NCBI RefSeq assembly: GCF_030013205.1
Contig: NZ_CP122648.1
From: Escherichia coli
GTDB lineage: Bacteria; Pseudomonadota; Gammaproteobacteria; Enterobacterales; Enterobacteriaceae
Length of the DNA stretch: 64,000 bases
Reading direction: 5' to 3' (one strand)
Part shown: positions 55,798 through 61,252 of the stretch, in pieces
Position numbering within the stretch: position 1 is the first letter of the stretch
How the letters are laid out: each line of letters starts with the position of its first letter
The notes under the pieces: generated by a model
What the model was told of the DNA's origin: nothing
The model's input: only the letters and a program-made list of their open reading frames with translations
Database searches by the model: none
Translations under genes and position numbers: made by a program

Positions 55798-55850
55798 GGG
55801 CAGCAGAGCAGTCACGGAGTAAAACTGATACCGCCAAACGTCACCAGAAA
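55798..55850 (-). ncRNA. dicF: DicF small regulatory RNA
   Basis: Minus strand reads UUUCUGGUGACGUUUGGCGGUAUCAGUUUUACUCCGUGACUGCUCUGCUGCCC followed by UUUUU; matches remembered DicF; sits between ydfC and dicB. Confidence 0.85.
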
Positions 55851-57381: not shown

Positions 57382-57612
57382 ATGCTTAAAACTGACGCTC
57401 TTTTGTATTTCGGTTCAAAAACAAAACTTGCACAAGCAGCAGGTATTCGTTTGGCTTCGCTTTATAGCTGGAAAGGGGATTTAGTTCCCGAAGGTCGCGC
57501 GATGCGTCTACAGGAGGCATCTGGCGGGGAGCTTCAGTATGATCCCAAAGTTTATGATGAATATCGTAAGACGAAGCGGGCGGGGCGGTTGAACAATGAA
57601 AATCACTCCTGA
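57382..57612 (+). CDS. dicC: Cro-like regulator DicC
   Basis: 76-aa ORF divergent from dicA; recognised as DicC. Confidence 0.9.
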   Translation: MLKTDALLYFGSKTKLAQAAGIRLASLYSWKGDLVPEGRAMRLQEASGGELQYDPKVYDEYRKTKRAGRLNNENHS

Positions 57613-57919
57613 ACAGGCTCGTGAGGCTCTGGATGCCTGGATATGTCGACCAGGAATGACACAGGAGCAGGCGACGATATTAATCACTGAAGCATTCTGG
57701 GCTTTGAAAGAGCGCCCGAACATCGATGTTCAGCGTGTCACATATGAAGGTGGCGCGATTGATCAGCGAGCGCTTGGCGTTATCTGGTCATCACCTGACG
57801 GAGAAATACGTCGCTACGACAGTCGCCTAAACATAATCTGTCGCGAGTGCCGGAAGAGCGAAGTTATGCAGCGCATACTGGCTTTCTATCAGGGTAATTT
57901 TCAGGACGTGGCGCAGTGA
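57596..57919 (+). CDS. hypothetical prophage protein (YdfX-like position), Cys-containing
   Basis: 107-aa ORF overlapping the dicC 3' end by 17 nt; CxxC at CRECRK; family not assigned. Confidence 0.5.
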   Translation: MKITPEQAREALDAWICRPGMTQEQATILITEAFWALKERPNIDVQRVTYEGGAIDQRALGVIWSSPDGEIRRYDSRLNIICRECRKSEVMQRILAFYQGNFQDVAQ

Positions 57920-58272
57920 GTGCACCGGCAACCATTCTTGATATGTGCTGTGGCAGCCGCATGTTCTGGTTCGATAAGTCTGACGAACGGGCGATATTCA
58001 GCGATATCAGAAAAGAAGGATACACATTACGCAATGGGAGACGCTTGATTATCAGCCCTGACATTATCGCAGATTTTCGTGCATTATCATTTGCAGACGC
58101 ATCTTTTTCGATGGTTGTATTAGACCCTCCGCATCTTGAGAGTGTTGGTGATAACGCCTGGATGGGAAAGAAATATGGACGGCTGAATAAAGATGCCTGG
58201 CGTGATGATTCGCGACAGAGATTTAAAGAAGCCTTTCGGGGGTTGAGGCCGCACGGCGTTCTGATTTTTTAA
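57916..58272 (+). pseudogene. short SAM-methyltransferase-like ORF, probably truncated
   Basis: 118-codon ORF starting at GTG overlapping the upstream stop; motif-I-like ILDMCCGS and DPPH (DPPY-like); ends at a T6 run. Confidence 0.4.
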
Positions 58273-58631
58273 TGGAATGAAACGCAAATACCGGTAAGCC
58301 AGATTCTGGCACTGACAGACAGAAAACCTGTTATCTGTCAACGAACAGGGAAAAAACGATAAAACCCACTGGATTATTTTTATGAAAGAGGCATCCAGTG
58401 AGTAGATTCGTAAGGCTACAGATACGTATATCTGAATAATTAAATTCAGTTCTGTAAATAAAATTTAATCCTTAACCGGATGGATTTCTGCACCCTCAGA
58501 ACATCAGGAGGCCGCCCGAAAGGGCGGTAGTGAAATGCGAATGTTCAAAATTATTATTGAAACGGGAATAGCTGGTGGAGATTTTGAGGATGTATTCGAA
58601 GTGGACGATGACGCAACACCTGAGGAAATTC

Positions 58632-58886
58632 ATGACGGAGCATAAGAAATTTTCTTTAACTACTGCAATTACTCATACCACGAAATAAAAGACGATGAGG
58701 AAGAACAAAGTGGCTGATTTTTGTTCAGCTAAATATAACATCAGTTTTGAAGAGCGGGATGAACTATTAATGGACTATGGTGAGTTACGCGGTGGAAGTG
58801 CTGCTGATGTCGAATCCTAGCGTGATGACTATGAAGCGGGAAAAACTCCGGTCGAAGCATATTGTGATGAGTGGGGCGATGAATGA
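58632..58886 (+). pseudogene. reading frame interrupted by in-frame TAA and TAG, otherwise open
   Basis: Hand translation MTEHKKFSLTTAITHTTK*KTMRKNKVADFCSAKYNISFEERDELLMDYGELRGGSAADVES*RDDYEAGKTPVEAYCDEWGDE*. Confidence 0.3.
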
Positions 58887-59604: not shown

Positions 59605-59938
59605 ATACAGCGAACTCCATTGGTTTAGTTGGATATTTACTGTGCTGGACAAAAACGGTTTGCGGGGAAATCTTAGTTAAGTAGAATGACTGCGGGTGCT
59701 TGAGGCTATCTGCCTCGGGCATGGACACCAACGGCAGATAGAGAAAAGCCCCAGTTAACATTACGCGTCCTGCAAGACGCTTAACATTAATCTGAGGCCA
59801 ATTTCATGCTAGACACATGTAGGTTAGCCTCTTACGTGCCGAAAGGCACGGAGAAGCAGGCTATTGTTAACACCAAGTTGTAATGTCCCCTTTGAACCAT
59901 TCTAAAATGTCCCCAGACAATTCTCTGGGGGATTTTTC

Positions 59939-61252
59939 ATGATCAAAGAGACTGTTACGATGAGTCATAAGGAACTCCACCGACTTCAGATTATTCAGGA
60001 ACAAGCTGCGGCACGCATTGGCATTTCTATTCGGCAGGTTAAACGTCTGGTGCAACGGTATAGAAATGAAGGGCCTTCTGGTCTGGTTTCCCACCGACGT
60101 GGAAAGCGTCCTAATAATTCCTTTTCTACTGAATTCAGAGCAACAGTAATTTCACTCCTCAAAGGCCGTTACGCTGATTTTGGACCTACGTTTGCGTGCG
60201 AAAAATTGCGCGAGATACACGGTTTATCTTTATCCGTTGAAACTCTCAGAAAGTGGATGATAGAAGAGGGGTTATGGCGTGAACGCCGTCGTAAAATTGC
60301 CCGTATATATCAACGCCGCATGCGACGACCATCTTACGGTGAACTGATCCAGATTGATGGCTCACCTCATGACTGGTTTGAAAATCGAGGCCCCAGATGT
60401 ACACTGATCGTTTTCATTGATGATGCCACCAGTGCGTTGATGGCGTTGCGTTTTGTGCCTGCTGAAACAACCCGGGCTTACATGGAAACCCTCCGGGGTT
60501 ACCTTAATGATCATGGCGTACCGCTCGCTCTCTACTCTGATAGACACAGTATATTCAGGGTAAATAACCCAGAGCGGGAAGGTGAGCTGACCCAGTTCAC
60601 TCGTGCGATAAAGACACTGGGCATCGAGCCAATCCATGCCAACAGCCCGCAGGCAAAAGGGCGGGTAGAGCGCGCCAATCAGACACTACAGGACAGGCTG
60701 GTCAAAGAAATGCGGCTTCAGAATATCAGTGATATTGAAACAGCAAATGCATGGTTGCCGACCTTTATTGAAGCCTATAACAACCGGTTCGCTACGTCGC
60801 CTCGTACTACTGATAATGCTCATCTTGATGTGCACCATTCTGAAGAGGAACTGGGTTATATCTTCAGCCTACAGGCGAAGCGCGTTCTGTCTAAAAATCT
60901 CACTTTCCAGTACAAAAGCAGTGCGTTTCAGGTACGCAGTGAGGGCCGGGGATATCGACTTAGGCATTCGGTTGTTACTGTATGCGAGAACTTTGACGGT
61001 GAAATTAACGTTCTGTATGACGGGAAAGCGCTGGGCTGGGAAAAGTATGTTGATGGCCCGGAGCCTATACCACTGGATGATGAAAAGAGTGTCCATGAAC
61101 GAGTGGATAATGCCCGTATTGATTTACGCTCAAAATACTATGTTAAACCTAAAGCTGACCATCCCTGGCTTACGCGCCGAACGCAAAGTCATCAGCAAGT
61201 TAAGCCCCCGAAGTTACCTAAAAAGAAGCCTGATCCCGATAAAAAAGATTGA
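59939..61252 (+). CDS. DDE transposase with N-terminal HTH and rve-type integrase core (IS481/ISNCY-like), Lys-rich tail
   Basis: 437-aa ORF; HTH at IGISIRQVKRLVQRY; acidic residues in DGSPHDW / FIDDATS / RVERANQ context; family assigned from memory only. Confidence 0.65.
   Translation: MIKETVTMSHKELHRLQIIQEQAAARIGISIRQVKRLVQRYRNEGPSGLVSHRRGKRPNNSFSTEFRATVISLLKGRYADFGPTFACEKLREIHGLSLSVETLRKWMIEEGLWRERRRKIARIYQRRMRRPSYGELIQIDGSPHDWFENRGPRCTLIVFIDDATSALMALRFVPAETTRAYMETLRGYLNDHGVPLALYSDRHSIFRVNNPEREGELTQFTRAIKTLGIEPIHANSPQAKGRVERANQTLQDRLVKEMRLQNISDIETANAWLPTFIEAYNNRFATSPRTTDNAHLDVHHSEEELGYIFSLQAKRVLSKNLTFQYKSSAFQVRSEGRGYRLRHSVVTVCENFDGEINVLYDGKALGWEKYVDGPEPIPLDDEKSVHERVDNARIDLRSKYYVKPKADHPWLTRRTQSHQQVKPPKLPKKKPDPDKKD

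What the first reader, a model, noticed from the sequence alone, without database searches (positions are those of the whole stretch)
57916..58272. Methyltransferase-like ORF translationally coupled to the ydfX-like gene, ending at a T6 homopolymer
The ORF starts at a GTG overlapping the upstream stop (GTGA) and has a SAM-binding-like ILDMCCGS followed about 70 residues later by DPPH, resembling the DPPY motif of N6-adenine/N4-cytosine methyltransferases. At 118 codons it is too short for a complete enzyme. It ends right after TTTTTT, but a +1 or -1 shift there reaches another stop within 3-12 codons, so the truncation is probably a larger deletion.
Basis: partly seen in the sequence, partly recalled or inferred. 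Interest (0 to 1): 0.4.

Follow-up and report, generated by a model that had tools for sequence, protein, structure and literature searches.

The report
Dead prophage methyltransferase gene remnant
This is an inactivated copy of a small phage methyltransferase gene in a decaying Qin-like prophage of E. coli, cut short by a single-base change that made a stop codon rather than by a deletion; it is an ordinary pseudogene.

Summary
The ORF at 57916..58272 is real and as described: GTG start in a GTGA overlap with the upstream stop, ILDMCCGS (residues 7-14), DPPH (70-73), and a stop at the end of a T6 run. It is the 5' three-quarters of a small phage class I SAM-dependent methyltransferase gene (phrog_954, E=2e-56). 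Intact homologues are only 157-162 aa and sit in the same position after a DUF977 gene.

The truncation is not a deletion. Aligned with intact E. coli copies, the window has a single A->T change (AAA Lys119 -> TAA at 58270-58272), which also turns a T5 run into T6. The remaining 43 codons are still present in the same frame (58273..58405), broken again by a 1-bp G insertion (GG->GGG, 58348-58350).

An AlphaFold model of an intact homologue (pLDDT 95) shows the stop removes the end of strand b5 and all of b6 and b7. The window allele also has replacements at family-conserved sites (P58S, F69L, G102R, V109G, G141C). No intact copy of this allele was found in 5,426 complete E. coli genomes. Neighbouring genes are also broken.

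Verdict: an ordinary pseudogene, already annotated in RefSeq. The substrate of the intact family (DNA by annotation) is untested.

The parts
57916..58272 (+). 118-codon ORF: the 5' three-quarters of a small phage class I SAM-dependent methyltransferase gene, ending at a premature TAA
   Evidence: phrog_954 E=2e-56; RefSeq WP_126750418.1 at the 100%-identical locus in ETEC1748
57916..57919 (+). GTGA start/stop overlap with the upstream ORF (putative translational coupling)
   Evidence: the same AGTGA is present in all six aligned loci, including intact copies behind a different upstream gene
57934..57957 (+). Motif I, ILDMCCGS (SAM-binding loop after strand b1)
   Evidence: L8, D9, C12, G13 at least 90% conserved; b1 = residues 7-9
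58123..58134 (+). Motif IV, DPPH, invariant in 84 diverse homologues, directly after strand b4
58265..58270 (+). T6 run; it is T5 in intact copies, and the sixth T is the substituted base
   Evidence: (alignment columns 366-371)
58270..58272 (+). Premature stop TAA, derived from AAA (Lys119, 99% conserved in the family) by an A->T transversion
58273..58405 (+). Retained 3' remnant of the gene (codons 120-162 of the ancestral 162-aa form). It is in the original frame up to the G insertion and one base out of frame from there to the ancestral TAG at 58403-58405
   Evidence: the 162-aa intact relatives P0001 and P0002 end ...KEATSE/KEATSG
58348..58350 (+). GGG where intact copies have GG: a 1-bp insertion and second inactivating lesion (the frame then stops at TAA 58360-58362)
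57596..57919 (+). Upstream 'ydfX-like' ORF: an in-frame fusion of the YdaT N-terminus and the DUF977 C-terminus, made by a 1,604-bp deletion (junction 57780-57782)

Best explanation
The ORF is the remnant of a small (157-162 aa) phage-borne class I SAM-dependent methyltransferase gene. It sits in the early-right operon of a Qin-like cryptic prophage of E. coli, in the order dicC(cro-like) - ydaT - O-like - DUF977 - MTase.

In intact prophages the gene starts at a GTG that overlaps the stop of the preceding gene. It is therefore probably translated by coupling, and it probably methylates an exocyclic amino group, using SAM and the invariant DPPH loop. By annotation the target is phage DNA during replication; that substrate is inferred, not shown.

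In the window the gene is dead.
- An A->T transversion changed Lys119 (AAA) to TAA and incidentally lengthened a T5 run to T6.
- A 1-bp G insertion 78 nt downstream breaks the retained 3' part.
- Several family-conserved residues have been replaced.

The predicted 118-aa product lacks the end of strand b5 and all of b6 and b7 of the seven-stranded Rossmann-like sheet, so it should not fold or be active. This fits the state of the prophage segment around it: an upstream 1.6-kb deletion, downstream pseudogenes and an IS element.
For: Shown:
- Intact copies of 474 nt / 157 aa occupy the same position after DUF977 in strains 2014C-3599 and CAU16175, and sit behind a different gene in O157:H7.
- The DNA alignment has no length difference at the T run, only T for A. 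It has one extra G at ACA-GGA. Homology continues to the ancestral stop.
- The family has 6,621 homologues, mostly 156-170 aa. The conserved core spans residues ~5-158.
- K119 and W120 are 99% conserved. P138, F155 and K157 are at least 90% conserved and lie beyond the stop.
- The AlphaFold2 model of the intact homologue P0001 has pLDDT 95.3, with b5 at 110-121, b6 at 138-144 and b7 at 150-156.
- The window allele has P58S, G102R, V109G and G141C, seen in 0 of 84 homologues, and F69L, seen in 2 of 84.
- A query with both lesions repaired found nothing above 99.6% identity in 5,426 complete E. coli genomes, so no intact copy of this allele is there.
- The same TAA is present in every Qin-type copy examined: strains 6409, C11 and VE-V11-M, and phage PhiR42_1. 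It is therefore not a sequencing error.
- RefSeq flags the gene as 'frameshifted; internal stop' in strain C11.
- Flanking genes are also pseudogenes.

Inferred: translational coupling, the amino-group target, and loss of folding.
Against: - PGAP annotates the 118-aa ORF as an ordinary CDS in most genomes.
- The 118-codon frame is kept nearly unchanged in several hundred genomes (P0113 cluster of 385 members). This could equally reflect recent common descent.
- Pairwise dN/dS of the repaired allele against intact copies is 0.16-0.22, no higher than among intact copies. Relaxed selection is therefore not visible in that measure.
- After the stop arose only 3 nonsynonymous and 4 synonymous changes are seen, too few to test.
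- Expression and activity were not measured.
Confidence: 0.93

Rival explanations
1. The 118-aa product is a functional shortened protein, for example a SAM-binding or regulatory fragment, kept by selection.
For: The ORF is intact and near-identical in ~480 complete genomes and is annotated as a normal CDS. It retains motif I, D30 and DPPH.
Against: - It lacks three strands' worth of the core sheet and five highly conserved residues.
- It carries replacements at conserved sites, including V109G unique to this clone.
- No independent family of ~118-aa homologues exists; the short hits are this allele or fragments.
- The surrounding genes are decayed.
Confidence: 0.04
2. The gene was truncated by a larger deletion that removed its 3' part.
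For: Frameshifts of +1 or -1 at the T6 run hit stops within 3-11 codons. Large deletions did occur nearby, such as the 1,604-bp one upstream.
Against: The window aligns base for base with intact genes through and beyond the stop, up to the ancestral stop codon. The only length difference is one extra G.
Confidence: 0.01
3. The stop is bypassed by programmed recoding (slippage on the T-run, or TAA readthrough) to give a full-length enzyme.
For: The stop lies at the end of a T6 run of the kind that can be slippery.
Against: - Both shifted frames terminate within 3-11 codons and carry no homology.
- The homologous continuation is in the zero frame, so only readthrough would help. It would then meet the +1 G frameshift 78 nt later.
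- Intact relatives have T5+AAA with no recoding signal.
Confidence: 0.01
4. The stop codon is a sequencing or assembly error in a homopolymer.
For: It lies in a homopolymer run. One assembly (VE-V11-M) differs in the length of the nearby G run.
Against: The change is a substitution, not a length change. It recurs in every independent Qin-type copy examined, from assemblies of different origins.
Confidence: 0.005

Closest known systems
Intact 157-162-aa prophage 'class I SAM-dependent methyltransferase' of E. coli and other enterobacteria (e.g. WP_001275735.1, WP_000145671.1, WP_000004203.1; phrog_954; PADLOC MTase_II PDLC03288 and oMTase PDLC03730)
   Same: Same gene family, same position after DUF977, and same GTGA-overlapping start. 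Amino-acid identity is 85-87% over the reconstructed 157-162 residues.
   Different: The window copy has a premature TAA at codon 119, a 1-bp insertion near codon 145, and replacements at conserved sites.
Gamma-class exocyclic-amino DNA methyltransferases (e.g. M.TaqI, N6-adenine)
   Same: Class I fold. Motif I comes before motif IV, and a (D/N)PP(Y/F/H)-type loop follows b4. M.TaqI appears among the Foldseek hits at E~1.5e-4.
   Different: - There is no target-recognition domain; the whole protein is just the 157-aa core.
- No Pfam DNA-MTase family reaches threshold. The best is N6_N4_Mtase at 18 bits against a cut-off of 26.7, in one homologue.
- TM-scores are only 0.47-0.51.
RNA m2G methyltransferases with a DPPY/DPPF motif (archaeal Trm11; RsmD-like HI0767)
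   Different: No THUMP or other RNA-binding domain. The matches are no better than those to methyltransferases of unrelated substrates (PH0226, Bud23, lipid N-MTase).
Non-specific adenine DNA methyltransferases of phages (Hia5/Hin1523, PhiOS31_p25/ARM81ld_p56; M.EcoGI/M.EcoGII)
   Same: Phage- or prophage-borne orphan enzymes. They were considered because a protein with no recognition domain might lack sequence specificity (PMC3299994, PMC7556043, PMC5778455).
   Different: - These are different families and architectures: alpha- or beta-class with a TRD, and M.EcoGII is 349 aa.
- The Morganella phage protein cited as an OS31_p25 homologue (ARM67989.1) is not the one homologous to this ORF (ARM68010.1).
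E. coli K-12 Qin prophage dicC-ydfX-ydfW segment
   Same: Same prophage backbone (dicB, ydfABC, dicA, dicC; 99.8% identity up to window 57782).
   Different: K-12 has an independent, larger deletion, from within ydaT to window ~61068. It removed the methyltransferase remnant altogether. K-12 YdfX shares only its first 62 residues with the window's upstream ORF.

Membership tests
Small phage class I SAM-dependent methyltransferase family (phrog_954 / PADLOC PDLC03288) | Significant full-length profile match | tested here: met
   The window ORF matches phrog_954 at E=2e-56, but only to profile positions 52-165 of 229. The intact homologue matches at E=3.8e-85 to positions 52-201. P0001 matches PADLOC MTase_II at 2.4e-71.
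Small phage class I SAM-dependent methyltransferase family (phrog_954 / PADLOC PDLC03288) | Complete conserved core (~residues 5-158, seven-stranded sheet) | tested here: not met
   The stop at codon 119 and the frameshift near codon 145 remove the end of b5 and all of b6 and b7. The locus is a pseudogene member, not a functional one.
Class I (Rossmann-like) SAM-dependent methyltransferases | Seven-stranded b-sheet fold with a glycine-rich motif I after b1 and an acidic residue at the end of b2 | tested here: met
N6-adenine / N4-cytosine DNA methyltransferases (exocyclic amino MTases) | Motif IV (D/N/S)PP(Y/F/W/H) after strand b4 | tested here: met
   DPPH is invariant in 84 homologues and lies at residues 70-73, directly after b4 (residues 64-69).
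N6-adenine / N4-cytosine DNA methyltransferases (exocyclic amino MTases) | Target-recognition domain | tested here: not met
   The whole intact protein is the 157-aa catalytic core. There is no additional domain in the model or in Pfam.
N6-adenine / N4-cytosine DNA methyltransferases (exocyclic amino MTases) | Match to a curated DNA-MTase family (Pfam N6_N4_Mtase, N6_Mtase, MethyltransfD12, Dam, MT-A70) | tested here: not met
   Only generic Methyltransf_11/25 match. There are sub-threshold N6_N4_Mtase (18 bits) and NCBIfam PRK13699 (E=0.13) hits around motif IV. The profile search of PDB sequences found no DNA MTase.
N6-adenine / N4-cytosine DNA methyltransferases (exocyclic amino MTases) | Demonstrated methylation of DNA | not testable with these tools
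   No experimental report on this family was found in seven literature searches. The 'DNA methyltransferase' labels in PHROGs, PADLOC and phage records are annotations.

The most novel reading that the evidence does not exclude
The locus itself is dead. The most novel reading left open concerns the intact family it derives from. That family is a 157-aa methyltransferase with no recognition domain and an invariant DPPH. It is 46-64% identical across temperate phages of Proteobacteria, Firmicutes, Actinobacteria and Bacteroidota. It may not be a sequence-specific DNA methyltransferase at all. It could be a non-specific DNA enzyme, or one that acts on RNA or protein, with a conserved role in phage early functions.
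Probability: 0.2. Interest if true: 0.45.

Novelty: already known. Interest (0 to 1): 0.08.

Why it matters
It matters little for biology. It is one more decayed gene in a cryptic prophage, and the exact sequence is already in RefSeq, in one strain already flagged as a pseudogene.

There are two practical points.
1. The 118-aa ORF is annotated as an ordinary 'class I SAM-dependent methyltransferase' in hundreds of E. coli genomes. It should not be counted as an active methyltransferase when predicting methylomes or restriction-modification content.
2. The case shows that a stop next to a homopolymer need not come from slippage. Here a substitution created both the stop and the longer run.

The intact family is widespread and lacks an experimentally defined substrate, which may deserve a test of its own.

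Tried and rejected
- **Non-specific m6A family.** I followed a lead that this is the phage non-specific m6A methyltransferase family (PhiOS31_p25 / ARM81ld_p56, PMC7556043), because Morganella phage IME1369_02 appears in both lists. Rejected: the homologue of this ORF is ARM68010.1, whereas the paper's homologue is ARM67989.1.
- **M.EcoGI, M.EcoGII, M.EcoGIX.** Rejected. The first two are 349-aa beta-class enzymes, and M.EcoGIX is plasmid-borne.
- **PDB sequence searches.** Neither the single protein nor the family profile gave a specific relative.
- **Domain fusions.** Pfam on the longer homologues (250-320 aa) found no informative fused domains.
- **Relaxed selection.** dN/dS was uninformative: 0.16-0.22, similar to intact-versus-intact comparisons. 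There are too few changes after the stop arose to test.
- **Order of the lesions.** I first inferred from strain VE-V11-M (TAA but no extra G) that the nonsense mutation came first, then withdrew this. That allele is nested within the derived S76/S99 haplotype, while the more ancestral-looking C11 allele has the insertion. The GG state is therefore more likely a back-slip or an assembly error.
- **Literature.** Searches by accession number and by 'DPPH motif' found nothing.
- **Promoters and terminators.** The scan around the ORF was not above the shuffled expectation in any useful way.

Full report
**1. The observation**

- An ORF runs from GTG at 57916 to TAA at 58270-58272, 118 codons.
- Its GTG overlaps the TGA of the upstream ORF (57596..57919) as GTGA.
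- ILDMCCGS is residues 7-14 and DPPH is residues 70-73.
- The stop follows a T-run (T6, 58265-58270), and the last T of the run is the first base of the stop codon.
- Shifting by -1 or +1 at the run gives stops after 3 and 11 codons.

It goes on to encode WNETQIPVSQILALTDRKPVICQRTG. After an A-rich stretch, the next frame encodes GKNDKTHWIIFMKEASSE*.

**2. Where it sits**

The window is a Qin-like cryptic prophage of E. coli.
- The 505 bases around the ORF are 100% identical to strain ETEC1748 and at least 99% identical in 381 records of complete genomes.
- RefSeq annotation of that locus gives dicB, ydfC, ydfB, ydfA and dicA on one strand. On the other strand it gives dicC, a YdaT fragment, a DUF977 fragment, this ORF ('class I SAM-dependent methyltransferase', WP_126750418.1), a DUF7167 pseudogene, another pseudogene, an IS transposase fragment and ydfW.
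- Less decayed relatives (strains 6409 and C11, phage PhiR42_1) have the full early-right operon: dicC - ydaT - O-like gene - DUF977 - this ORF.

**3. What the truncation is**

Intact homologues in E. coli 2014C-3599, CAU16175 and O157:H7 NE1092-2 are 474 nt, or 157 aa. Aligned with them, the window shows no deletion.
- Intact copies read TTTTT AAA TGG where the window reads TTTTT TAA TGG. A single A->T transversion turned Lys119 into a stop and made the T5 run a T6 run.
- Homology then continues base for base.
- At 58348-58350 the window has GGG where intact copies have GG. This 1-bp insertion shifts the frame.
- The TAG that ends the 157-aa forms is GAG in the window (58388-58390). This is a natural variant, not a lesion: the closest intact proteins, P0001 and P0002, are 162 aa and end KEATSE/KEATSG. 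The ancestral gene here was therefore 162 codons, 57916..58405.

The gene carries a nonsense substitution plus a frameshift.

**4. How widespread the lesions are, and their order**

- All Qin-type copies examined carry the TAA: 6409, C11, VE-V11-M and PhiR42_1.
- A query with both lesions repaired found nothing above 99.6% identity among 5,426 complete E. coli genomes. No intact copy of this allele is present there.
- The closest intact protein in a 5.8-billion-protein collection is 87% identical.
- One assembly (VE-V11-M) lacks the extra G. It is nested in the derived S76/S99 haplotype, while the more ancestral-looking C11 allele has the insertion. I read this as a back-slip or an assembly error.
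- A rare variant (P0005) has GAA at codon 119 but keeps the frameshift.
- The order of the two lesions is unresolved.

**5. The family**

- The ORF matches phrog_954 'DNA methyltransferase' at E=2e-56, and an intact copy matches at 3.8e-85.
- An intact copy also matches PADLOC's 'Type II MTase' and 'orphan MTase' profiles.
- Pfam gives only weak generic Methyltransf_11/25 hits.
- There are 6,621 homologues, mostly 156-170 aa, with a subclass of ~248 aa that carries a C-terminal extension.
- In the 50%-identity representative library, the conserved core spans residues ~5-158 in nearly all full-length members.
- The family occurs in temperate phages of many phyla (Listeria A118, Lactobacillus A2, and Enterococcus, Streptococcus, Gordonia, Corynebacterium, Vibrio, Acinetobacter and Porphyromonas phages) at 46-64% identity. 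A haloarchaeal virus has a copy at 34%.
- In an alignment of 84 diverse members, D30, P48, D70-P71-P72-H73 and R108 are invariant. K119 and W120 are 99% conserved.

**6. Structure and consequence of the stop**

An AlphaFold2 model of P0001 built from that alignment is confident: pLDDT 95.3, pTM 0.89.
- It is a minimal class I methyltransferase core.
- b1 (residues 7-9) precedes motif I, b2 ends at D30, and b4 (64-69) leads into DPPH.
- b5 is 110-121, b6 is 138-144 and b7 is 150-156.
- The stop at 119 therefore removes the end of b5 and all of b6 and b7.

The window allele also has residues found in none of the 84 homologues at conserved positions (P58S, G102R, V109G, G141C), and F69L, found in 2 of 84. 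V109G is specific to this clone. I infer that the 118-aa product cannot fold into an active enzyme. This is inference, not measurement.

**7. What the intact enzyme does**

- A profile search of PDB sequences finds PH0226 and, weakly, Trm11 and the RsmD-like HI0767.
- The invariant DPPH after b4 is the signature of enzymes that methylate exocyclic amino groups (established knowledge of motif IV). An N-methylation of a nucleobase is therefore the most likely chemistry.
- There is no target-recognition domain, no curated DNA-MTase family reaches threshold, and I found no experimental report.
- The 'DNA' in the annotations is thus unverified.
- Two known families of non-specific adenine methyltransferases were considered and excluded.

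**8. Translational coupling**

The GTGA overlap is present in all six aligned loci. This includes O157:H7, where the upstream gene is a different one. A 4-nt overlap is also seen in Morganella phage IME1369_02. Coupling is a reasonable inference for the intact gene but was not tested. In Qin-type copies the GGAGG upstream of the start reads GGACG.

**9. Rivals**

- A functional 118-aa fragment is not excluded, but it is unlikely given the missing core strands and the decayed neighbourhood.
- Recoding is excluded in practice. Both shifted frames stop at once, and readthrough would meet the second lesion.
- A sequencing error is excluded, because the change is a substitution that recurs in every independent Qin-type copy examined.

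**10. Verdict**

The feature is an ordinary pseudogene in a cryptic prophage and is already present in RefSeq annotation. In strain C11 it is already flagged 'frameshifted; internal stop'. Interest is low. The only open question of any breadth is the untested substrate of the intact, very widespread 157-aa family.

Noticed in passing
window 57596-57919 (junction 57780-57782): The 'ydfX-like' ORF is an in-frame fusion of the first 62 residues of YdaT with the last ~45 residues of a DUF977 protein. A 1,604-bp deletion with 3-bp microhomology made it, removing the rest of ydaT, the O-like gene and most of DUF977. K-12 YdfX shares only the first 62 residues and arose from a different, larger deletion.
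   Followed up: yes
window 59939-61252 (ydfW equivalent at 61103-61252): A 437-codon transposase-like ORF (annotated as an ISNCY / IS1202-like fragment in related genomes) ends at the same stop as K-12 'ydfW'. K-12 ydfW therefore looks like the last 49 codons of this ORF. The right end of the K-12 deletion (window ~61068) lies inside it.
   Followed up: partly
window 59694-59865 (+): Strong Rfam match to the sok antitoxin RNA (RF01794, 104 bits against a gathering score of 59). This indicates a hok/sok-type locus between the methyltransferase remnant and the IS element.
   Followed up: no
window 55798-55849 (-): DicF small RNA (RF00039, 71 bits), as expected for a Qin-type prophage.
   Followed up: no
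window 58535-58717, and ~58510-58528: A DUF7167 pseudogene with an internal stop lies downstream. Just upstream of its start there is a G+C-rich hairpin (GGCCGCCCGAAAGGGCGG) next to an AGGAGG, without a T-tail.
   Followed up: no
L001, L002, L012 versus L003 (RefSeq annotation of the same gene): PGAP annotates the lesion-bearing gene as an ordinary 118-aa CDS in most genomes, but as a pseudogene ('frameshifted; internal stop') in strain C11. Methyltransferase counts drawn from annotation will be inconsistent.
   Followed up: yes
Homologues P0001-P0268; phage loci L007, L010: The intact 157-162-aa family is unusually well conserved (46-64% identity) across temperate phages of at least four bacterial phyla. 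It has no recognition domain and has an invariant DPPH. A ~248-aa subclass carries a conserved ~90-residue C-terminal extension of unknown function. No experimental substrate was found.
   Followed up: partly
window 57903-57908 versus L005, L006, L008: The Shine-Dalgarno-like GGAGG upstream of the GTG in intact copies reads GGACG in all Qin-type copies. The change is also a Glu->Asp change in the overlapping DUF977 reading frame.
   Followed up: no
L012 (strain VE-V11-M) 1825-1994; protein P0005: Variant states of the two lesions exist: TAA without the extra G (VE-V11-M), and GAA at codon 119 with the extra G (P0005, from ENA metagenome data). Both appear to be derived within the pseudogene lineage.
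   Followed up: partly
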